Assembly: GCA_000091205.1 (NCBI GenBank)
Contig: AP006500.2
Length of the DNA: 64,000 nucleotides
DNA from: Cyanidioschyzon merolae
Taxonomy: Eukaryota
Reading direction: 5' to 3' (one strand)
Shown: positions 1 through 41,750 of the stretch, one piece after another
How positions within the stretch are numbered: position 1 is the stretch's first letter
How the letters are laid out: each line of letters starts with the position of its first letter
Notes under the pieces: model-generated
The model's database searches: none
The model's input: the letters and a program-made list of their open reading frames with translations, nothing else
What the model was told of the DNA's origin: nothing
Translations under genes and position numbers: made by a program

Positions 1-330
1 TTATGCGGGCGTGGTGTGTTGGGCTTAAAGATAGTTGTTCTTTGATGAATAGTTTGTGACTAGTTTGCATCGCGCTCAGTGAGCGCACCTCGGAGATCAG
101 GCAGGCATGAGACACGACGCACATGCCGTTGTTGAAGGGGAACGTGATCCTGATCTCTAGCATGTAGATCTATTGTAAACGTTGTATTTTCGTTCAGGCC
201 ATAGCAACGTACAGTCTTTCAGTTCGATTGTGCTTCAAACCTCAAACAAGTCTAGTCAAGTGTTTTTTCGCAGTATATAACAGAAGGGTTCAAAGAGCGT
301 TCTTTCTCAAAAAACAAAAAAAGGAAAGCT

Positions 331-2761
331 ATGAAAAAGCAAGTGCACGATCCTGGAGGCCCAGTGTCGCCGGCTGCCAGAAAAAAACAAAAAACAGTGT
401 CGAGTCCAGAAGAAAAGGAAGAGAAGAAGGACCGAAAGGGGGATGCCCTACGTCGAAGGCGGCAAGAAAGACGACTGTACGACGAGATGGTGGTGAAAGC
501 CTTCCTTCTTGGACATATCAAGGATCCCTACAGGGAAAAGTTGCGAGACGCTATCGAAATACGTGTCGACTCGTACTCCAAGAGTATTGTCAAGGCGTTG
601 TCAGGACTGATGCATTTGGCGAGGGAGATGTATCGCGACGTGACGCACATGCAAACGGTCGAGATTCCAGACGATATCTTCGACAAGACGTTTATTCGCC
701 ACCTGATGCTTGGTACAGGGGAGATGCGGAGGGAAAATGAGCAGTACATGCCGTACACGAAAACTTCGCGCAATTCCGCTTCGAAGGTAATCGATACAGC
801 GGTGACGGAAATATTGACACATACGGAGTGAAAAAGTACATCACGAATCTGAAGAACCATCTGATCGTGAACCTCGAACGTTTCATGATACGCGCCGTAT
901 TTGGACTCTACCCGGGCATCTCTCGCTATGGGAAATGGGCGATTATCAACGGCATCACGAACGATCGCAAGCATGAAGATGAGGTCGAATTTGTTGACCA
1001 GAAGGCGTCAAAAGAGAGCACGAATGAAGCTGCTGTGATCCGTGCGGTTGGACAAGAGCATCGTGTGGTGCTCGGGCTGGTGCATCCAGCAGAAAAGGTA
1101 TAAGAGTTGAAAAAAGATAAGGAAAGATACGATTGTCTCCTCCTACGGTATTTCGTGTTTTTGGACCGTGAACTCGATCGCAAAGCGGAGATGAAGCTGA
1201 GTGAAGAGACAAATGGAGAGTGGGAGAGACGGAAGAATTTCCTAATGGGGAAGTGCTTCAACGTCGTTCCGTCATGCAATGCCAAGTCACATTTTGTTAC
1301 TATCGACTCCAGAATCCCTCACGGCATCATGAAGGAGATCAGTCCGGAGTTCAATGTTAACAGGGAGGAATTCTCCGGTGAAAACCGGATGACGTACTGG
1401 AAGAACATCTTCGATTTCAAACGCCTGAGAGTGAGCAAGCAAAAAGTGTTCACTGGGATAATCGAAACCGATGGAGTAGCCTTGTGTGTACACTATCGGC
1501 GGTTGAAGACAGATCAGCCAGTCCCTCCCTCGGCTGCGCCCATGACGAAGGATGAAGAAAACAAAGAGGCGGGTCCTGCAATGCAAGAGGTGGAGGACAA
1601 CGACTTTGTCGTTGGCGCGGCGGAGCATGAAGAAAACAAAGAGGAGAATCCTACGACTCAGTAGGTAGAGAATAACGACCTTGTCGTTGACGTAACGAAG
1701 GATGAAGATGAGAAGGAAGCGGACCCTGTGATGCAGGAGCTGAGGGGGAACGACCTCATCGTTGACGCGGCGAAGCATGAAGAAAACAAGAAGGCGGGCT
1801 CTGAGAAGCAGAAAGTGCAGGATAACGACTTTGCCGTTGGCGCTGACCCCGGAAACACAAATATCATAAGCATCGCAGCACCCACGCGCGCGGAAAATGG
1901 TACTCACGGTAACTTACGTCAGAAAGACATGCGTCTATTGAGGTTCTCGAGAGCGATATACAATCGATAATCGGGAATCATGAATGCGAGGAAGAAAATT
2001 GAGGCATGGAATGCAGGAATGGAGGATCACCTGGAAGCTATGAGCGAGGTGACGAGCTGCGGAGCGGACTTTGAAGCTTTTCGGAAATTCATGGAAGTTC
2101 ATAGTACCCATTGAGATGCGCTGTGGGAGGAGTATACAAAGCCCCGGTGGGCTCGTCTGCGTATGAATCTATACGGTGGGAGGCAGCGCGCATTCGCGAA
2201 TTTTTTCAATCAGTTGAGCTCCCTAAAGGAGGACGAGAGTCAGAGGCTCGTAGTAGCGTACGGAGCAGGGCGCTTGAAGACCCAAAAAAGGGGCTACGCC
2301 AGCTCCAACGACGAGAACGTACAAGGAGTGTGCACGGCGTTTTGTTACGATACCTGTAGATGAGTTTCGAGCATCCTATGCACACCGTGAACTGGGGTGT
2401 ACACTCCAGAGAGCGGAGATGGAAAAGTGCCAGAGGAGCCCTGAGGATATAAAAAAGTACGGACCGCTGACGGAGGAGCAAATGGAAAGGAGGGCAAAAG
2501 TGCGAGGGCAACTCGCGTTGGTGAGTACAACCCCCAAGCGGCAAGAAACGTATGGAGTTTGTGAACCGAGAATTTAACGCTGCCACCAATATCAGACGAT
2601 GTGCAGTGCTGGAGGAAAGACCTTCAAAGAAGACAAGAGTGAACTTTGTTGGACAACCTATCAAAGTCGAACTATATAAGAAAAAGTTGGAAGCAGTAGC
2701 AGGTAGCCTGTCCAAAAAGACCGGCAGGCGTCTACACTCCAGTTGGAGACTTCTTGTCTAG
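331..2761 (+). pseudogene. Fanzor/TnpB-like RuvC nuclease ORF interrupted by in-frame stops and frameshifts
   Basis: Frame +1 ORF 331-831 begins MKKQVHDPGGP. Frame 0 is readable from 828 to 2363 but carries in-frame stops at 1101 (TAA), 1662 (TAG), 1968 (TAA) and 2112 (TGA). There are frame changes near 830 and near 2335. The C-terminal RuvC-III region lies in frame +2 at 2552-2761. Confidence 0.6.
1500..1870 (+). repeat. Degenerate 75-80 bp internal tandem repeat (about 3.5 units) duplicating the RuvC-I coding segment
   Basis: Repeated peptides are [46 protein letters not shown] and [12 protein letters not shown]. Only the last unit keeps the GxDPG motif. Confidence 0.6.
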
Positions 2762-2833
2762 GCCGCGTTCGCCACTACTGTACACCGCTGGCGACAACGT
2801 TTTTCTTTTGAAAGGCGTTTGTTGTTGACGGTG

Positions 2834-4021
2834 ATGCCGGTTGTCGTGCTCTGCGGCTTGCCTCGAGCAGGCAAGTCAGCGCTGGCAAAGCGAATCGCTG
2901 AAGCAGCACCACCACACCTTAAACCAGTGACGATACTCTCAGATCGCGGCATAGAGGACTACGCTGAGCCGCAGCGCGAGAAGACTGCGCGCAGTCGTCT
3001 GCGTGCAGCCTTGGAGCGTGCACCTTACCGCGAACGTCTGGTGATCGTAGATGCTTGCAATCTCGTCTCTGGTTTTCGCTATGAGCTATGGTGCGTGACC
3101 CGCGTGCCCGCTGGAAAGCGTCAAGAGTCAATACCTCACGTGACAGTACTTATTAGAAGTAAGGCAGACGTTTCTGAAGTCTCCTGTGCTCATAGTCCGC
3201 CGGGATACCAGCGCTCCACTGCCGACCGGCCTTCGGCTGCAGCAGTGGGCCCAACGCGTCTTGTTGTCGAACCCGAACTGACGTCGCCGGAGAGGATCGG
3301 GCACGAGCCGCAAGCGAAAAGCGCCCGGTCGGCGAACGCAGATGCTTTGCGCTCTGTTCTGAACGGGCGATGTGAAGTGGCAGGTCCCAGACAACAGCCT
3401 CAAGCGGACAGCGACGTGGCAGCGAACATTGCCCGGGTACGAGAGCGCTTCGAATGGCCAGACCCGCAAGGCCAACGATGGGATCGACCGCTGTTCACCA
3501 TGTCATTGAAGGAGAGGGTTTGCTCGTACGAAACTCCGGATGGGTGCACGTTCTTCGAAGAAACGCAATGGGTCGCTTCCATCTATGATTGGATTTCAGG
3601 AGGCACTGCTCGGAAGGATTTCAAAACGACGTCACGAATGACGATCGCGACGCGTCAGACTCGCGTTCAATCCGCGGATAGCTACTTCGAAAGCGAGATC
3701 CGCAAAATCGAGGACGCTATTATCCAAGTGCTCTGCGCCGGAGATGAGGGCGAGCATCAACACCCCGGAACGGTGTATACGTACGACAAGTGTCCGCTTC
3801 GCCTTCCTGAATCGTACTTGCGACGGATTTTCCTGCTCGCGAATCAATCCAGTCGCCTGTATACGGTATCGCAAGATTTGCGTGCACATCGTCATCTCTT
3901 TGTACGTCGATATCAGAAACGACGGGTAGAGCAAGATTCGAGTGCTTCGGTGCAAGAGTTCATTCGGTCTCTGGAAGGATACCTTGAGCTGCGCGACCAA
4001 CAACGTCGTAGCGAACACTGA
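2834..4021 (+). CDS. KTI12: KTI12 homolog (Elongator-associated P-loop ATPase, PSTK-like)
   Basis: The protein starts MPVVVLCGLPRAGKS (P-loop, compare human MPLVVFCGLPYSGKS). It also has the LVIVDACNLVSGFRYELWCVTR and RWDRPLFTM motifs. The ATG is at 2834, inside the 2819-4021 ORF. Confidence 0.75.
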   Translation: MPVVVLCGLPRAGKSALAKRIAEAAPPHLKPVTILSDRGIEDYAEPQREKTARSRLRAALERAPYRERLVIVDACNLVSGFRYELWCVTRVPAGKRQESIPHVTVLIRSKADVSEVSCAHSPPGYQRSTADRPSAAAVGPTRLVVEPELTSPERIGHEPQAKSARSANADALRSVLNGRCEVAGPRQQPQADSDVAANIARVRERFEWPDPQGQRWDRPLFTMSLKERVCSYETPDGCTFFEETQWVASIYDWISGGTARKDFKTTSRMTIATRQTRVQSADSYFESEIRKIEDAIIQVLCAGDEGEHQHPGTVYTYDKCPLRLPESYLRRIFLLANQSSRLYTVSQDLRAHRHLFVRRYQKRRVEQDSSASVQEFIRSLEGYLELRDQQRRSEH

Positions 4022-10870: not shown

Positions 10871-11638
10871 GTATCTGAAAAGCCGAAGGACAGGAAGACC
10901 AAGGAGCCACCAGACGAATACACGGAATATCCTCACGAGAAGCAGATAAGGAGGAATCAGGGATAGCGCTCGGAGCGGATCCATCAGTCCGAAAGCATTG
11001 TCAGGGACGCTTTCATGAAACACACGAACGGGGAGAATCCTCCCGAACACGAGGTATAGGACGCTATCAAGGGTCTCGTAGCTTCTCATACGAGCAAGGT
11101 TCACACCTAGCTTTCTGCGTTGCAGTGCACATTGGCAAGCAACTGGTCGTTGACATTCCGGACGCTGAAGTGCCGGTTGTTCATATTCACCTGGAATATT
11201 TCGATCAAAGTTTCGCCCGGCAACACAACGCATGCTGTGCATCGAGAAAGCAGGACGGCCTGATCGAAGGATTACATTCATGCTTGCACATATGCTTTCG
11301 CTTCAGCTGGAGCCACATTTCTTGAGACGGTTCAGCGCCATACTCATCCAAAGGTCTGCGGCTGCAGCTTCACTTGACGACCCGCAGGAGACTTCGCATC
11401 CAACAAGTGCTGCGTACTCGCGGAAAGCGTTCTCCAGATGCTCGCCCAAAACCCCCGATCGGTCATCGTTCTCATGAAAAGCCCCATTTCACGGTGTCGC
11501 CGACGCACACCAACCCTCTATCTATGCACGAGTCGTTCCAGTTGATGTTCTTCTTATCTGATGCTCGATGGACGCATCGCCCAGGGTGCTCGCTTGCACA
11601 GCTGACGAATGCACGCCGATGCACACCGACTATGAGTC

Positions 11639-14027: not shown

Positions 14028-14396
14028 CTAGGCAGTAGCTTCCATAGCGCGGTAACTTGCGGCATTCATGCTTCCACAGGGCCTAAGTTCGCGTCCGCGA
14101 TCCCACACAATGGACAAGTGAACTCCGCCGGGTGTGTCCTGCACCTCCGCCATCGACTGGGTTCGCTCAACGCATCCCCGGGGATTCGAGTTTGTGTATT
14201 GCTTCGGGTTTTCTTCATTGTAGATATCTAGGCTCAACGTCCCTTGCCTCATTTTCCGGGATGCTCGACAGTGGTGGGTATCCGAGGCATCCACCAGTGC
14301 CCCGCTCCAAATATGACGAGGCCCGTCTCGTTTCGGACAGGCCTTCTTAATGGCTTCCAACTGAATTGTGTTATACCCCCAGGTGCGCGTCATCAA
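14028..14396 (-). CDS. Small hypothetical ORF (122 aa) with a weak MsrB/Mss4-like C-terminal resemblance
   Basis: The segment GGVHLSIVWDRGRELRPCGSMNAASY loosely resembles MsrB GGHLGHVFDDGP...RYCINSAAL. Its 5' end abuts Fanzor-derived copy B. Confidence 0.25.
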   Translation of the reverse strand: MMTRTWGYNTIQLEAIKKACPKRDGPRHIWSGALVDASDTHHCRASRKMRQGTLSLDIYNEENPKQYTNSNPRGCVERTQSMAEVQDTPGGVHLSIVWDRGRELRPCGSMNAASYRAMEATA

Positions 14397-14907
14397 GTGC
14401 TTTTTTTCGCGGTTTACAGCAGAAGCGTTCCAAGTGTGTTTATTTTCAAAAAAAAAATCGAGGGCATGTTATGGACATGCAAGTCAGGGATCCTGGTGGG
14501 CCTCTATCGCTGGGTGCCGGAGAAAAACAAGAAAATCCTCATGTGATCGAGCGTCGAGCGAAGAAGAGCAGCTGGCGGAGAATCAGAAAAAGAATACTAG
14601 GGGCGATAAGCGAGATACGGTTTTCACCCGGCTGTACGATGACGAGACTCTTGCCGTACAGCGGGCACGAGTTGCAGTGATCTTTGTACTGGTTCCATCA
14701 ACCAGTTGCAATAGAATCGCGGAGTTCGTGAACCGAGATTCCATCGCCGTCATGGTTGTCAGCCGATTTACGTTGCTGAAGAGGAGACCCGCGGCGCTCA
14801 CGCGAGCCAACTTGTGGGTCAGCCTCCCCGGCTCGGAGTGTACAAGGAGAAACAGAGCCCGATAGCAGTCAGCCGGTCAAAAACGGCTGGGAGGCGTCTC
14901 CTTCCGG
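14349..14907 (+). mobile_element. Non-autonomous internally deleted Fanzor-family element (copy B)
   Basis: The 5' end actgaattgtg...tcaagtgctttttttcgcgg and the ORF start ATGGACATGCAAGTCAGGGATCCTGGTGGGCC match copy A. A remnant EFVNRDSIAV is followed by the 3' module gatagcagtcagccggtcaaaaacggctgggaggcgtctcc. Confidence 0.65.
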
Positions 14908-16862
14908 GTATTAAGTTTCGCTCCATGGTCTTGAAACGTCTATGGCTTTGCGGACTATCTAACTCGCCGGAAAATCGGGCTGTGCTGCAGTAGTATTTCA
15001 GCGCTTCCCTGTGGTTTCCTCTGTTGCTTCGTTTTCGTTCTCTTTGATGCAGAGTCAAGGAGACCGAACGAGTGCCCTTGAATTCAGGATCAAAGGAAAA
15101 ACGTGGTATCGCGTTGACAAGGTTTCAACTGATGACTCGAACAACCCGACGAATGTTTGCTGTGTCGAACATCGCGAAACGATTGGGTATCGTGCCAACG
15201 TGTCTTCCTGGTGCATCCATGTCGTATTTAAATACAACATTGAACTGCTCGCACTGGCCCTGCTTTTCGATCTTATTCCAGAACTTGTCTAGATATACAG
15301 CGTCGACATTCGGTGTGGGACCATAGCGCCGTCCGGATTCATATATGGATTTAGAGTTCTCGGTTGTGATTTGGGATAGGCTTCATTGTCGCCTTGGCAC
15401 TGGAATGCTTAACTTCACCGGATTCAGGATGATTCGCAACATCCCTGACCAAGGATGCGTAAAATAATCGATACCATTATCCACTGCATATGTACAAGAG
15501 TACACGCTTCTCATTTCCTAAGGTGTAGCACGCTCAACTCTAGCATTTTTCAAATTCCGATTTTCTGTTTCAGCGACACTCGAGAGCGCAGCAATGCGTT
15601 CCGCTTCATTGGCGATGCGGGAGACTCGACGTCGCCGCTTGGGGACCTGTTCACAAGCTCATGCCTAACGTTCACTGAGCATGTAACCTCAAACAATTAC
15701 TTCTGATCGAAGAGGCAAATCGTTCTGTCGTTGAGGCCACTGACGAAACCGTATTCGACGGCATCGTCATGTCTCCCGCGGAATATGTCCCCAGAAGCTC
15801 CTCTTGCCTTCTGTTTCTTTCTGTAGGGAAGTATCATGGACTCGGGCTTGAGTCATCAGAGCAATGGCTTCCGGTGAGGCGTGCGTCATCGCCTTGCGCA
15901 AAGGCAGCATGGACGGATCGGAAATTCTCGACTCGGTCTCCAGCAAGAATTCGCCTTCCGGTACTTGTTTGATCGTAGACAGCATCGCGTTGAACAAATC
16001 GTGTATCGAATGCGACAACGTGTGTTTGCTCGTGCCGCGTCCAGGAAACGCTCCGAGCGGATCACCCAGACAAAGTCCAGTATCGTATTCTACGGCACCG
16101 GGCCCCGAAACGGAGGTTTGGATCCAAGAGAGCCCTCTCCATCTATGAAAAGCACGTACCGAGCGCGATGAATCAAGCGTTCATGCGCGGCAGAGTAGTT
16201 CCCAGAAAAAAAAAGCATATAGAAGGTGGACGTACGCGAACATCTACCCACAGTCAAGTGTCATCGATACGAATCGCGCGCCGAGGCGGTGTACAAAGGA
16301 AACAAAAAGCCCACGCGATGTATCGATCGTAACTTTTCCCGCTGCATGGAATGCGTCGATTAAAGCCGGAAGCAGCAAAGTCGGAATTCAAACGCTGCGA
16401 TCAACATCCTTAGACTGCTTACAGACGATCTCGAGGGAAAGGAGAAACCGTCGAACGTAAACCTAGAAATAAAACATAGGAAATACAGCTTTCGCAGAGC
16501 AATCCTTCAAAGGCTGGTGTTGATAACAACGGGAAGAAGCTCCAGTTTATTGTGTACATTCGAGTTCATGAAATGAACCCGTTCCATTTTATGCCGACAT
16601 TCCTGGAGCGGCACGACAGGCAACGCAACGACCTGCCGGCTGGCGACGCGTAGACCGTGGCGCCACCCCGTGTCCCGCACCGCACGGCACCGCACAGCAA
16701 CGCGCTCTTCAAGCGTACGCTCTCTGAACGCCGGGTGTGTCGTCAACGACGAACGCCCCTGAGCCGAAACCCTGTGAGTCCTTCACAAGAGTCTGGTGTT
16801 TCTAAATTGCTGTGAGCGCGTGCGGTGGGGTTTTCTTGGCCTGCTTTTGGATCGAAACTCGA

Positions 16863-17555
16863 ATGAGCACAACGGGGTCAGCTGCACCCGCGGAAGGTCC
16901 GGATAACGACACCGGAACAAGCACCCACGGACACGAACAGGAGAGGTAGGTTTGGCTTTTCGAGCTGACGTGCAGCGACCTGAATCAGAACGTGTTGCAT
17001 TGGTCGAGTCTGCGTCGACTCGGGGTGAAGAGAACGCGAACTAACCACGCCGCTGGGACTCGAGGTTTCCAGGTATTTGCCGATCGCCAATATTAGCCGA
17101 TGTATGAAGGGCGCTTTGCCAGAGTCCTCCAAAGTTTCGCGAGAAGCAAAGGAGCTCGTTCAGGAAGCAACCAGTGAGTTCATATCGTTCATAACTTCTG
17201 AGAGTAGCGACAAGTGTATGCGGGAGAGGCGAAAGACGATCTGTGGGGGTAGGTTTTGTGCACGACAGCCGGTGCGTCAGACACGAGCACCACCGGGTGC
17301 GTGCTATCGGACAGGAGACTAACCATTTGCTTTTTTTGCGGCCTTGTCACAGAGGACATTCTCTACGCCATGCGTACGTTAGGTTTCGAAGAATATATTC
17401 CACCGTTAATGGCATACCTTGAGAGATACAGGACCCTCGAGCAGTCCAGGCGAAACGAAAAGCAAGCGCCTGGTACCTCAGAGGGAACCGACGGGGAAGA
17501 TAGCGAGTCGGATGGCGGCGGGATCGATGACTCTGCCAAAGACGATACGTCATGA
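16863..17555 (+). CDS. NF-YB/HAP3-type histone-fold transcription factor subunit (multi-exon, 5' exon uncertain)
   Basis: The protein reads [59 protein letters not shown], then [27 protein letters not shown]. An intron runs 17249-17352 with GTAGGT donor and CAG acceptor. A possible upstream exon starts at ATG 16863 with a donor at 16945. Confidence 0.7.
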
Positions 17556-27162: not shown

Positions 27163-27559
27163 GGACATCACGCAGTGCATTCATTTTCAAAAATAAGAAA
27201 TCTAATGGATGCGCTGGGTTGTACACCTCAAAAGGTTGGGATGGAGAGAAGGCAGTGGAGCGCTTCGGCGATTGAAAAGCACGGAGAGCTGACAGAGCAC
27301 CAAACGGCACTGAGGGCAAGAGTTCGAGGAATCCTTGCAATGATGAGTACCACCAGCATCAGTAATCGCATGGAATTCGTAAACCGAGGCTTCAACGCTG
27401 CTATCCATATCAGACGATGTACGTTGTTGAAGACGAGACCCGGGGATTTGAGGCGAACCAACTTCCTGGGGCAGCCTCTGATGCTCGAAGTGTGCCTAAA
27501 GAAACTGATTCCGATCGCATGCGGCAGATCAAAAAGACTGGGCGGCGCCCGTCAGTTGG
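27163..27559 (+). mobile_element. Non-autonomous internally deleted Fanzor-family element (copy C)
   Basis: The 5' start of the ORF is retained (ATGGATGCG...). The ORF 27175-27564 encodes RARVRGILAMMSTTSISNRMEFVNRGFNAAIHIRRC, colinear with the copy A C-terminus. It ends with the 3' module gatcgcatgcggcagatcaaaaagactgggcggcgcccgtcagttgg. Confidence 0.65.
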
Positions 27560-28358
27560 TATGAATTCAGTCTGTATTCATTTATAGGAACAGAAACGAA
27601 CCTTTATTTAGGAGCGAGATAACAATCCCGTTCTCTATCTACGATAAGCGTTGATAGGGGGAAAGTTTCCGCATGGTCGAGAGTTCGCCTTCTAGGCGGA
27701 AGGCCAGCGAGACGGACGAGTCTACCAAGCTCGTGCTTCATGCTTCCTCCAGTGGCAAGTGTTTTAGTGAGATCTGAGCAGCTCGTCCGCAAAACGCAGC
27801 TCATTCTGGGATCAGGTGCAGTTAGGCTGCATCTGGGCGTCGCCCTGGTCGCAGTGGACTCCTAGGATATCGCTTCACGCTGCCGCAGGCTGTACGTCTG
27901 CCAGTGCAGCTTGCAGGCTCGCAGAATGATCATATACTTCGACTCCGTATCAGGTGAAGCGTTCCTCGATCCGACGTGCTCAGTGGCGTGCCAAAGCCGT
28001 TCTATCCCCATGATACATCTGCTCCAGCGATATAAGCGCCACGGCGAGCGCACAAAACAGGTACTCGGTGAACGATACAACATACGAAACGGCCAGTATA
28101 TCCGAAAGCAAGTATGGGAGATGGAAATTCAAGGTAGTTGCTTCATGACGGGCGCTTTCCCGAAAGCCATGATCCATCCCGCAATCTGGGATTCACGGTC
28201 TATGTAAACGTATTTGCATCGAAAAGGAATCGGACATAAGTGCGGGAACCGCTTTCTGTCGAGAGCGACGTTCCCTTGTATGCCCGTGGCCTCCTCTGGC
28301 TGTGCACGGTCTTCATGCGTCGTTCGCTTCCATCTTTTCCTGATTTGAGACGCTGAGG

Positions 28359-40560: not shown

Positions 40561-40918
40561 CTCACGGAAGACGACTGCAGGCTCCGGGAGGCTTATCGCG
40601 CCGGTCAAGCACCTTGTCAGATGTCGAGGCTCAACGCTGGTGCGTATGGGCGAACTCAAATACGTGTCCACCGGATCAAGGGCACGATGTAAGCTCCAAT
40701 GATCATGAGACGCAATGAATTAGTCAAGTCCTACATAATCGGTTCCCCTGAGGCGCAAAGAGACAGCAGCTTGGGCAGGACTGTGAATTGGTCGCTGTCC
40801 TGCGAGCCTAGTGAAAGAACGGTGTTGCTTCGTGGTCGTTTCGTGGACCCTGACAACCGAGACAAACCGCTCTGTCAATTCTTTCTCCGGAATTGTGTTC
40901 CGCCCCCCAGATGTGTGT

Positions 40919-41417
40919 ACTGAATTGCTTTTTCACAATTTATACCATGCGCATTCGAAGTATGTTTATTTGAGGAAACAGAAATCTAAGTGAAAGGCAT
41001 GGACATGCAAGTCGGCAATCCTGGATGACAGTCAATGCCGGCTGCCGGAAACAATCCTCCTCTTGTCGACCATCGAGCGCAGAGGCGCAAGTGACGACGA
41101 AGACGAAGAGGGCGAATAGGCGAAAAACAGTGCCTCCCGACGGGACGATAACGAGACTTTTGTCGCACAGAGGGTACGGGTCTGAGAAATCCTTGCAAAG
41201 GTGCGTTCAACCGGTGTCAATGTACGCAAGGAGTTCGTGAGCCCAGACCTCAACGCCGCCGTCAATATCACACAATGTGTAGCACTGGAGACTAGACCCG
41301 CGGAGCCGACGCGAGCGAACTTTGCAGGGCATCCTCTCCCGCTCGATGTGTACAAGCAGAAACTAAAACCGATAGCAGTCGGACGGTCGAAAAGGGATGG
41401 GAGGCGTCTTCCAATGG
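40919..41417 (+). mobile_element. Non-autonomous internally deleted Fanzor-family element (copy D)
   Basis: The 5' end actgaattgcttttt and the ORF start ATGGACATGCAAGTCGGCAATCCTGGA are retained. A remnant KEFVSPDLNAAVNITQC (RuvC-III with D intact) is followed by the 3' module gatagcagtcggacggtcgaaaagggatgggaggcgtcttccaatgg. Confidence 0.65.
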
Positions 41418-41750
41418 TTTTCCATTTACCCTACACGGTCGTGGGACATTTTTTGTTTCACGAACATTTATGTATATTGGGGAATAATTGCATCAGAGAG
41501 GTGATTGTTGCTTGCTTCCGCTTGTGGTGATCCACGCCGACATCTCCACACCATCGAAGAACGATGTGCATCCGTCCGCAAATGACGCATCCCGCACATG
41601 CCTCCTGCTCCTACGATGACTGTCTATACGTTGACGATGCGAACCAAGCCAAAGACAAGTTTAAACAGAAAAACCTCGCTTTCGTCGCGCGATGTCGTTG
41701 ATATGCAGCGCCGGTCGGGATCACTCCTGTTCACGGGTACGCACCGTGCG

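What the first reader, a model, noticed from the sequence alone, without database searches (positions are those of the whole stretch)
222..2761. Eukaryotic TnpB-like (Fanzor/OMEGA-type) RNA-guided nuclease element, founding copy of a four-member family in this window
The roughly 2.5-kb unit encodes a protein with a basic NLS-like N-terminus (ARKKQKTVSSPEEKEEKKDRK) and a RuvC-I motif of the eukaryote-typical form [19 protein letters not shown] (GxDPG rather than the bacterial GxDLG). Further on come a VVAYGAG block, a VDEFRAS RuvC-II block, and a C-terminal EFVNREFNAATNIRRC block. In copy D this last block reads SPDLNAAVNI, which is the RDxNAAxNI RuvC-III hallmark of TnpB, Cas12 and Fanzor. Both termini recur in three deleted copies, so this is a mobile family. 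Its host context is eukaryotic: the neighbouring NF-YB gene has spliceosomal introns. Fanzor or OMEGA systems in this lineage would be worth characterising.
Basis: partly seen in the sequence, partly recalled or inferred. Interest (0 to 1): 0.85.

Follow-up and report, generated by a model that had tools for sequence, protein, structure and literature searches.

The report
Dead copy of known red-alga Fanzor1 transposon

Summary

**Host.** The window is Cyanidioschyzon merolae 10D: four window ORFs exactly match BAM82546, BAM82547, BAM82548 and BAM82553.

**Identity.** The element is 86% identical in DNA to the published CMe-1A consensus of Bao & Jurka 2013 (about 150 copies in this genome). 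Its repaired protein is 75-78% identical to their CMe-1 Fanzor1 protein.

**Homology.**
- A profile of 41 diverse relatives hits solved Fanzor1 structures: PpFz 2.6e-21, SpuFz 3.9e-16, GtFz 2.6e-10.
- An AlphaFold model (pLDDT 81) of an intact relative matches SpuFz best (Foldseek E 1e-16).

**This copy is dead.** It carries three frameshifts, four in-frame stops and a catalytic Asp-to-Glu change in RuvC-III.

**Extent.** The shared core runs from about 68 to 2824, not 222-2761, and ends 9 nt before the KTI12 start codon.

**Other copies.** Copies B and D are old, roughly 550-bp internal-deletion derivatives. Copy C is a 3' fragment.

**Minor additions.**
- A terminal 3' hairpin is kept in two compensating sequence variants.
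- The 5' modules vary between copies.
- A variable 25-aa repeat lies before RuvC-I.
- This clade has no CxxC zinc ribbon.

Already known; low interest.

The parts
1..67 (+). Upstream sequence that is not part of the shared core. It belongs to a repeated block of about 1.8 kb that continues beyond the window start. It is not the TE-N2_CMe module of the published consensus.
   Evidence: Orthologous contigs L054 and L055 (98% identical) extend upstream and hold no match to consensus 1-635. The same upstream block precedes paralogous copies in L015, L010 and L020.
68..2824 (+). Core of CMe-1A copy A, a Fanzor1-bearing element. It holds the 5' leader, the degenerate ORF and the 3' untranslated end.
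   Evidence: It is 86.4% identical to the published CMe-1A consensus over window 26-2817, which aligns to consensus 588-3169. Homology with dozens of paralogs starts at about 67-72 and stops at ...GGCGTTTGTTG, position 2824.
331..2761 (+). Degenerate Fanzor1 ORF, about 813 aa after repair.
- A 1-nt deletion at 742/743
- A 1-nt insertion at 2284
- A net +1 shift at 2533-2540
- In-frame stops at 1101, 1663, 1968 and 2112
   Evidence: Six-frame reading, the alignment to the consensus, and 75-78% amino-acid identity to the published CMe-1 protein.
376..438 (+). Basic N-terminal stretch ARKKQKTVSSPEEKEEKKDRK, which looks like a nuclear localisation signal.
   Evidence: Read directly from the sequence. 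N-terminal NLSs are reported as general in Fanzors (PMC10530073). Function was not tested here.
1546..1843 (+). Four tandem copies of a 75-bp (25-aa) unit just before the RuvC-I motif. The consensus has one copy, and the number varies between copies.
   Evidence: Tandem Repeats Finder. The copy has a 225-nt in-frame insertion relative to the consensus. Other loci carry different repeat numbers. The corresponding region is disordered in the model, residues 374-470.
1827..1883 (+). RuvC-I motif [19 protein letters not shown], with the catalytic Asp codon at 1845-1847.
   Evidence: Asp and Gly of GxDPG are invariant in 41 diverse relatives. The motif aligns to the DP(G) motif of PpFz, SpuFz and GtFz.
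2250..2270 (+). VVAYGAG, the strand at the canonical RuvC-II position, carrying Gly where most TnpBs have the catalytic Glu.
   Evidence: It aligns to the corresponding strand of SpuFz and GtFz. The published 'rearranged catalytic site' of Fanzors has Gly or Pro at the canonical Glu (PMC10530073).
2356..2376 (+). VDEFRAS, which carries the relocated catalytic Glu (codon 2362-2364).
   Evidence: The Glu is invariant in 41 relatives. It aligns to DEYKTS of SpuFz and DEFRTS of PpFz.
2555..2602 (+). RuvC-III block EFVNREFNAATNIRRC. The catalytic Asp is replaced by Glu (GAA at 2570-2572, GAC in the consensus).
   Evidence: Sequence, comparison with CMe-1 FVNRDFNAAINI, and R, N, A and N invariant with D nearly invariant in relatives.
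2762..2824 (+). 3' untranslated end of the element, with a terminal stem-loop at 2794-2822 (ACAACGUUUUUC-UUUU-GAAAGGCG.UUGU). It is a candidate right end and the 3' part of a guide-RNA scaffold.
   Evidence: 28 of 45 non-redundant copies fall into one of two recognised sequence variants of the terminal stem-loop, and most fold more stably than shuffles (median z -2.0 over all 45). The flanks differ after ...GGCGTTTGTTG. No RNA data.
14363..14934 (+). Copy B, an internal-deletion derivative of about 550 bp. It joins a 5' leader plus the first codons to the last 75 or so codons plus the 3' region.
   Evidence: blastn to the consensus matches 802-969 and 2903-3082. It is collinear with copy D at 68.6% identity, and with similar short elements in L051/L060 and L038. 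HMM hit at 14659-14820.
27209..27547 (+). Copy C, a 5'-truncated fragment covering about the last 110 codons.
   Evidence: tblastn gives 52% identity at E 2e-26. The HMM E-value is 1.8e-33. blastn matches consensus 2737-3010.
27588..28221 (-). TE-N2_CMe-like element, equivalent to the first 633 bp of the published CMe-1A consensus. It is inverted and sits 40 bp after copy C.
   Evidence: blastn gives 82% identity over 638 bp on the minus strand.
40890..41460 (+). Copy D, a second internal-deletion derivative of about 550 bp. It keeps SPDLNAAVNI.
   Evidence: blastn matches consensus 802-961 and 2854-3082. tblastn. Collinear with copy B. HMM E-value 6e-16.

Best explanation
Window 68-2824 is one decayed genomic copy of CMe-1A, the Fanzor1-carrying mobile element family of Cyanidioschyzon merolae 10D described by Bao & Jurka in 2013.

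The family's protein, CMe-1, is a Fanzor1. It has a TnpB-type RuvC nuclease with the Fanzor-type rearranged active site: Asp in GADPG, Gly at the canonical RuvC-II position (VVAYGAG), a relocated Glu in VDEFRTS, and Asp in RDFNAAINI. It also has a basic N-terminus.

By homology with SpuFz1, GtFz1 and PpFz1, an intact copy would bind a guide RNA (omega RNA) transcribed from the 3' end of the element into the flank, and would cut matching DNA next to a short transposon-adjacent motif (TAM). This step is inferred, not shown.

The copy in the window cannot do that. Its ORF has three frameshifts and four stops, and the RuvC-III Asp is Glu. Copies B and D are old non-autonomous deletion derivatives that keep only 5' and 3' parts. 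Copy C is a fragment.
For: **Host.** Four window ORFs are exact matches to C. merolae 10D proteins BAM82546.1, BAM82547.1, BAM82548.1 and BAM82553.1.

**Family identity.** The copy is 86.4% identical in DNA to the published CMe-1A consensus. The repaired protein is 75-78% identical to published CMe-1.

**Fanzor1 homology.**
- Profile hits to solved Fanzor1 chains: 9cf0 at 2.6e-21, 8gkh at 3.9e-16 and 9cer at 2.6e-10.
- The AF2 model has pLDDT 80.7 and pTM 0.78.
- Foldseek's best hits are SpuFz (E 1e-16, TM 0.58/0.70), PpFz and GtFz. Cas12, TnpB and Fanzor2 follow far behind.
- The catalytic columns are invariant.

**Inactivation.** Frameshifts, stops and the Asp-to-Glu change.

**Mobility.**
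- 412 related stretches were found in metagenome contigs and 80 loci fetched.
- The copies share a 3' end followed by unrelated flanks.
- A collinear short-derivative family exists.

**Past protein function.** Codon positions 1, 2 and 3 match the consensus at 0.91, 0.95 and 0.80 in the RuvC half. This indicates purifying selection while the family spread.

**Terminal 3' hairpin.** It is kept in two sequence variants.
Against: - No RNA data, so the guide RNA is inferred only.
- RNAalifold on the 3' alignment recovered no terminal structure.
- Third-codon-position conservation near the 3' end is barely raised, 0.83 against 0.80. There is no strong sign of an RNA constraint overlapping the ORF.
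- No Pfam or NCBIfam model reaches threshold on the protein itself.
- The clade lacks the CxxC zinc ribbon of TnpB and SpuFz1, so some mechanistic detail may differ.
- Nearly all surveyed copies are broken, so present-day activity of the family is doubtful.
- No transposase partner, TIRs or TSDs were found, as in the 2013 paper.
Confidence: 0.93

Rival explanations
1. The locus encodes a functional Fanzor nuclease, for example through programmed frameshifting or because the disruptions are sequencing errors.
For: Motifs are recognisable along the whole length, and the copy is only about 14% diverged from the consensus.
Against: - There are three independent frameshifts, four in-frame stops and a catalytic Asp-to-Glu change.
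- Independently assembled orthologous contigs L054 and L055 are 98% identical across the element and align to the consensus in the same pattern. The individual stops and frameshifts were not checked in them.
- GenBank annotates no protein here. The first annotated neighbour is KTI12, BAM82546.
Confidence: 0.02
2. It is a host multigene family, not a mobile element.
For: No TIRs, TSDs or transposase were found here or in the 2013 paper. Some copies share a long upstream block of about 1.8 kb, which resembles segmental duplication.
Against: - The literature reports about 150 copies in the genome.
- The copies share a 3' end followed by unrelated flanks.
- A common 5' junction follows at least four different upstream modules.
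- A family of about 550-bp deletion derivatives retains only end regions.
- The homologs are transposon-borne Fanzor1s.
Confidence: 0.03
3. It is a Fanzor2/IS607-type element or a recent bacterial TnpB transfer, rather than Fanzor1.
For: Weak Pfam Cas12f1-like_TNB hits (E 0.028 for P0023; 7 of 41 relatives, best 5e-4). Foldseek partial matches to TnpB 8h1j and Fanzor2 9b0l.
Against: - The Fanzor1 structures match over the whole length with E values of 1e-14 to 1e-16. TnpB and Fanzor2 match only about 270-280 columns, at E 0.02-0.03.
- The profile hits only Fanzor1 chains.
- No serine recombinase gene is adjacent.
- Bao & Jurka classed the family as Fanzor1.
Confidence: 0.02
4. The decayed copy has been co-opted as the promoter or 5' leader of the adjacent KTI12 gene.
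For: The element ends at 2824 and the KTI12 start codon is at 2834. The arrangement is conserved in the related contigs L054 and L055.
Against: Proximity is expected in a very compact genome. There are no expression data. Conservation between 98%-identical strains says nothing about selection.
Confidence: 0.1

Closest known systems
CMe-1A element / CMe-1 Fanzor1 protein of Cyanidioschyzon merolae (Bao & Jurka 2013, Mob DNA 4:12, PMC3627910)
   Same: Same genome and same family. The copy is 86% identical in DNA to the consensus over 2.5 kb and 75-78% identical in protein. No TIRs or TSDs are detectable. Copies are about 80-88% identical to the consensus, as published.
   Different: - This copy is broken.
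- It has three extra 75-bp repeat units.
- It lacks the TE-N2_CMe module that forms the first 635 bp of the published consensus; a different repeated block precedes it.
- Across copies, conserved sequence continues about 7 nt past the published consensus end.
SpuFz1, PpFz1 and GtFz1: biochemically and structurally characterised Fanzor1 nucleases (PDB 8GKH, 9CF0, 9CER)
   Same: Whole-length fold match and profile homology. The active-site layout is the same: DP(G) Asp, Gly at the canonical RuvC-II position, relocated Glu in DExxTS, and Asp in the RDxNAA-like motif.
   Different: - Only 13-15% identical in sequence.
- No CxxC zinc-ribbon cysteines between the relocated Glu and RuvC-III.
- A variable disordered 25-aa repeat lies before RuvC-I.
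- Guide RNA, TAM and cleavage are untested for CMe-1.
Bacterial TnpB of IS200/IS605 (ISDra2; PDB 8H1J)
   Same: RuvC core and RDxNAAxNI-type third motif. The guide RNA is expected from the element's 3' end. The ends are hairpin-bearing rather than inverted repeats.
   Different: - Only a partial structural match, E 0.02 over 273 columns.
- The canonical Glu position differs.
- No TnpA partner.
- The protein is twice as long, with a large N-terminal helical region and an NLS-like start.
Fanzor2 of IS607-like elements (ApmFz2; PDB 9B0L)
   Same: Eukaryotic or viral TnpB descendant with a RuvC core.
   Different: Weak partial match only, E 0.03. No serine recombinase is associated.

Membership tests
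CMe-1A (C. merolae Fanzor1 element family) | Nucleotide similarity to the published consensus at the level reported for genomic copies (about 80%) | tested here: met
   86.4% identity over 2,558 aligned columns, consensus 588-3169.
CMe-1A (C. merolae Fanzor1 element family) | Host genome is Cyanidioschyzon merolae | tested here: met
   Four exact protein matches to strain 10D accessions on a 1,253,087-bp record.
CMe-1A (C. merolae Fanzor1 element family) | The 5' 635 bp corresponds to TE-N2_CMe | tested here: not met
   Absent from this copy and from its orthologous contigs. Only 17 of 57 surveyed copies have it contiguous. It appears to be a subfamily feature rather than part of the shared core.
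Fanzor1 | Sequence homology to Fanzor1/TnpB RuvC nucleases | tested here: met
   The family profile hits PpFz at 2.6e-21, SpuFz at 3.9e-16 and GtFz at 2.6e-10. Direct Pfam and NCBIfam scans of the single protein gave nothing.
Fanzor1 | Fanzor1 fold (WED/REC/RuvC/NUC architecture) | tested here: met
   A model of intact relative P0001 (pLDDT 80.7) matches SpuFz states best, at E 1e-16 and target-normalised TM 0.70-0.72. The prediction was made on a 73%-identical intact relative, not on the broken copy.
Fanzor1 | Rearranged RuvC active site: Asp (I), Gly or Pro at the canonical Glu, an alternative Glu, and Asp (III) | tested here: met
   Met for the family: D484, E656 and R724/D725/N727/A729/N731 are conserved, and VAYG aligns with the Gly position (PMC10530073). 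Not met for this copy, where the RuvC-III Asp is Glu at 2570-2572 and the ORF is disrupted.
Fanzor1 | Zinc-finger (CxxC...CxxC) in the C-terminal TNB/NUC domain | tested here: not met
   The CMe-1 segment has two Cys and no CxxC. Of the 28 relatives (out of 41) in which the segment was located, 27 have no CxxC. SpuFz, PpFz and GtFz keep the cysteines (alignments). This is a lineage difference, not a reason to exclude it from Fanzor1.
Fanzor1 | Guide (omega) RNA encoded at the 3' end of the element | tested here: inconclusive
   Conserved 3' UTR with a terminal hairpin in two compensating variants. RNAalifold and Rfam gave nothing, and there are no transcript data.
Fanzor1 | RNA-guided, TAM-dependent double-strand DNA cleavage | not testable with these tools
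   Requires biochemistry. No published test of CMe-1 was found: the full-text search returned no biochemical study naming Cyanidioschyzon, the Saito 2023 supplements held as text have no match, and none of the Jiang 2023 supplements are held as text.
Fanzor1 | Carried on a eukaryotic transposable element | tested here: met
   Multi-copy family with defined ends and unrelated flanks. The transposon superfamily remains unknown, as in the 2013 paper.

The most novel reading that the evidence does not exclude
The CMe-1 clade may be a Fanzor1 lineage without a zinc ribbon that still includes working nucleases. It has about 2,170 representative clusters in public data, and C. merolae is, from general knowledge, a thermoacidophile.

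Two observations bear on how it moves. Derivatives of about 550 bp keep only about 200 bp of 5' sequence and about 330 bp of 3' sequence. The 5' modules are interchangeable between copies. Together these would mean that mobility and any guide-RNA function depend on a small 3' cassette ending in a conserved hairpin, possibly without a dedicated transposase.
Probability: 0.15. Interest if true: 0.5.

Novelty: already known. Interest (0 to 1): 0.15.

Why it matters
It matters little as a discovery. The family, its host and its TnpB/Fanzor nature were published in 2013, and rhodophyte Fanzors are listed in the 2023 surveys.

The check is still useful as a positive control: a sequence-only reader recognised a Fanzor from motifs alone, in a broken copy on which Pfam and NCBIfam find nothing.

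The red-algal Fanzor itself appears never to have been tested biochemically. An intact or reconstructed CMe-1 from a hot-spring alga could be of practical interest as a nuclease. This particular copy contributes nothing to that.

Tried and rejected
- **Pfam and NCBIfam on the repaired protein:** no hits. Pfam on intact homologs gave only sub-threshold Cas12f1-like_TNB hits.
- **phmmer of the single protein, and a profile of close relatives only, against PDB:** nothing.
- **AlphaFold with the shallow alignment A1:** unusable, pLDDT 35. It was replaced by the diverse alignment A4.
- **RNAalifold on the 3' 290 nt of 45 copies:** found only a weak 6-bp helix inside the ORF and none of the terminal hairpins, probably because the alignment is gappy there.
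- **Rfam on 1-3200:** only a chance mir-156 hit at E 0.12.
- **Search for a partner transposase in the 1.8-kb repeated block upstream, in paralog L015:** only short unconvincing ORFs.
- **Possible fifth copy at about 33.2-33.8 kb and a hit at 10978-11223:** the 33.6-kb stretch is not significant in the HMM scan, and 10978-11223 gave no hit.
- **TSD or TAM inference:** abandoned because the 5' junctions are heterogeneous.
Full report
**What is in the sequence**

The + strand between 331 and 2761 reads as one long protein-coding region. It is broken into eight stop-free pieces spread over three reading frames.

- the basic N-terminus at 376-438
- [19 protein letters not shown] at 1827-1883
- VVAYGAG at 2250-2270
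- VDEFRAS at 2356-2376
- EFVNREFNAATNIRRC at 2555-2602

A 75-bp unit is repeated four times at 1546-1843, immediately before the first RuvC motif.

tblastn with the repaired protein finds three further pieces in the window. An HMM scan of the six-frame translation agrees. The pieces lie at about 14.4-14.9 kb (B), 27.2-27.5 kb (C) and 40.9-41.5 kb (D). Nothing else in the window is significant. Copy D does read SPDLNAAVNI.

**Identity of the host and of the element**

Four neighbouring ORFs of the window are exact matches to annotated proteins of Cyanidioschyzon merolae strain 10D. The accessions are BAM82546.1, BAM82547.1, BAM82548.1 and BAM82553.1, on a 1,253,087-bp record. The surrounding genes are ordinary eukaryotic genes with long uninterrupted ORFs: KTI12, NOX-type ferric reductase, ERMP1-type peptidase, Ulp1 protease and WD40.

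A literature search led to Bao & Jurka 2013 (PMC3627910), who named the Fanzor proteins. They list one Fanzor1 family in C. merolae, CMe-1A:
- about 150 copies, each about 80% identical to the consensus
- a 3,169-bp consensus and a 734-aa protein
- no TIRs, and TSDs undetermined
- the first 635 bp equal to a separate repeat, TE-N2_CMe

I took their consensus DNA and protein from the supplements. The window copy aligns to consensus 588-3169 at 86.4% identity. The repaired protein is 75-78% identical to CMe-1. The finding is therefore one of the copies already counted in that paper.

**Test of the Fanzor/TnpB claim**

Direct scans fail:
- Pfam, NCBIfam and a PDB sequence search with the single protein find nothing.
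- A profile built only from close relatives also finds nothing in PDB.

An exhaustive HMM search shows a large family, with 2,174 representative clusters at E ≤ 1e-3. I built a profile from 41 diverse full-length members. It hits the solved Fanzor1 chains:
- Parasitella PpFz at 2.6e-21
- Spizellomyces SpuFz at 3.9e-16
- Guillardia GtFz at 2.6e-10

With that alignment, AlphaFold gives a confident model of the intact relative P0001 (pLDDT 80.7, pTM 0.78). Foldseek against PDB returns seven Fanzor1 entries first, with E values from 1e-16 to 4e-14. Cas12 variants, TnpB and Fanzor2 follow, with far weaker and partial matches.

The columns that are invariant or nearly so across the 41 relatives are the Asp and Gly of GxDPG, the Glu of DEFRT, and R-D-x-N-A-A-x-N-I.

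In the HMM alignments, VVAYGAG lines up with the strand where most TnpBs carry the canonical RuvC-II Glu. The Glu of VDEFRTS lines up with the DEYKTS Glu of SpuFz. Saito et al. list D383, E541 and D606 as the catalytic residues of SpuFz1, but I did not map their numbering onto the MBP-fusion chain. This layout is the 'rearranged catalytic site' reported for Fanzors (PMC10530073; PMC10432273). The same paper reports that N-terminal NLSs are general in Fanzors, which fits the basic N-terminus here. Its function was not tested.

**State of this copy**

Relative to the consensus, the copy has:
- a 1-nt deletion at 742/743
- a 1-nt insertion at 2284
- a net +1 shift at 2533-2540
- four in-frame stops, at 1101, 1663, 1968 and 2112
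- three extra repeat units, a 225-nt in-frame insertion
- GAA (Glu) in place of GAC (Asp) at the RuvC-III catalytic position, 2570-2572

Independently assembled metagenome contigs from a closely related strain, L054 and L055, are 98% identical over 6.3-6.4 kb and align to the consensus in the same pattern. I did not check the individual stops and frameshifts in them. The copy is a pseudogene.

The family as a whole is also mostly decayed. Among 80 related loci, only one ORF type (P0001) keeps all three motifs over more than 700 aa. Across copies, however, codon positions 1, 2 and 3 match the consensus at 0.91, 0.95 and 0.80 in the RuvC half. The protein was therefore under purifying selection while the family diversified. 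Bao & Jurka drew the same inference from the survival of intact copies.

**Extent and ends**

They are not the ends of the element.

At the 5' side, comparison with dozens of paralogs shows shared homology beginning at about window 68 (CATCGCGCTCAGTG...), which is consensus position about 643. Upstream of that point the copies fall into at least four unrelated classes. One class is TE-N2_CMe, found in 17 of 57 copies. The window's own class is a block of about 1.8 kb that is itself repeated. This copy lacks TE-N2_CMe, as do the contigs that extend beyond the window start.

At the 3' side, similarity among 63 copies persists about 7 nt beyond the published consensus, to ...GAAAGGCGTTTGTTG (window 2824), and then drops to background. 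The KTI12 start codon follows at 2834.

**The 3' untranslated end**

The 63-nt 3' untranslated end contains two features.

The first is a sequence-conserved stem. It pairs the stop-codon region with CCACTA and encloses the near-invariant ACTACTGTACAC.

The second is a terminal stem-loop, at window 2794-2822. It occurs in two sequence variants:
- CGUCGUUCGA-CUU-UCGAACGGCG
- AACGUUUUUC-UUUU-GAAAGGCGUU

The differences between the two variants compensate on both arms. In all, 28 of 45 non-redundant copies fall in one of these two classes. Several of the remaining 17 carry the same hairpin with point changes. Median z against shuffles is -2.0 over all 45 copies. About ten copies lose homology at or before the hairpin, so they look truncated there.

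This is what one would expect of a right end and the last stem of an omega-RNA scaffold. The support is indirect, though:
- RNAalifold did not recover the structure.
- Rfam has no match.
- Third-codon-position conservation near the 3' end is barely raised.
- There are no transcript data.

**The other copies in the window**

B (14363-14934) and D (40890-41460) are collinear with each other at 68.6% identity. They are also collinear with similar elements of about 550 bp in other loci. Each joins about 200 bp of leader and first codons (from consensus 802) to about 330 bp of the last codons and 3' region. They belong to an old non-autonomous deletion-derivative family. This supports mobility and suggests that the end regions are what matters for it.

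C (27209-27547) is only a 3' fragment. An inverted TE-N2_CMe-like element lies 40 bp beyond it, at 27588-28221.

So 'both termini recur in three deleted copies' holds for two of the three copies. Even in those two, the recurring 5' sequence is sub-terminal rather than terminal.

**Differences from characterised Fanzor1s**

- Identity to SpuFz, PpFz and GtFz is only 13-15%.
- The clade lacks the CxxC...CxxC zinc ribbon between the relocated Glu and RuvC-III. No CxxC occurs in CMe-1, and 27 of the 28 relatives in which the segment could be located also have none. The three solved Fanzor1s keep those cysteines.
- The 25-aa repeat before RuvC-I varies in copy number between copies and is predicted to be disordered.
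- No transposase partner, TIRs or TSDs were found.

**Verdict**

The element is nonetheless an inactive copy of a family published in 2013 from this same genome. Rhodophyte Fanzors are also mentioned in the 2023 survey.

I found no published biochemical test of the C. merolae protein. The full-text search returned no such study, the Saito 2023 supplements held as text have no match, and the Jiang 2023 supplements are not held as text. That is the only open point. Novelty is 'already known' and interest is low.

Noticed in passing
window 27588-28221 (-), next to copy C at 27209-27547: A TE-N2_CMe-like repeat, 82% identical to the first 633 bp of the published CMe-1A consensus, lies inverted 40 bp after the 3' fragment of copy C. 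In the canonical arrangement the same TE-N2 end (about position 635) abuts the core's 5' end. Here it abuts a core 3' end. This could reflect a target preference or could be chance.
   Followed up: partly
window 1-67 and loci L015:1838-3632, L054:1-1530, L055:27-1840, L010, L020: Copy A is preceded by a block of about 1.8 kb that also precedes paralogous CMe-1A copies at other loci, at 82-90% identity. Other copies have at least three other upstream modules. The 5' part of the family is therefore modular, while the ORF and the 3' end are shared. No convincing ORF was seen in the block.
   Followed up: partly
window 1546-1843; L001, L003, L004: The 25-aa (75-bp) repeat before RuvC-I varies in copy number between copies: one in the consensus, four here, and between about two and five elsewhere. 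Each unit repeats the NDFVVGA strand that leads into the catalytic DPG. The region is predicted to be disordered.
   Followed up: partly
window 2824-2836: The element's conserved 3' end lies 9 nt before the ATG of the KTI12-like gene (BAM82546.1). Any KTI12 promoter or leader must therefore lie inside the decayed element. The arrangement is the same in the related contigs L054 and L055.
   Followed up: no
window ~17050-17290 (+): An NF-YB-like histone-fold reading frame ([11 protein letters not shown]...EFISFITSE...RERRKTICG) breaks off where the fold should continue. It lies about 14 kb from the element, not adjacent to it. The intron was not verified.
   Followed up: no
loci L054, L055, L057 and most of L005-L084: JGI metagenome contigs (samples 3300005573, 3300005861, 3300050362 and others) carry a Cyanidioschyzon genome about 98% identical to 10D at this locus, with the same CMe-1A insertion. 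They would allow a comparison of occupied and empty sites between strains.
   Followed up: partly
alignment A4 (41 relatives of CMe-1): This Fanzor1 clade has about 2,170 representative clusters in public data, and its members have no CxxC zinc-ribbon cysteines between the relocated Glu and RuvC-III. SpuFz, PpFz and GtFz do have them.
   Followed up: partly
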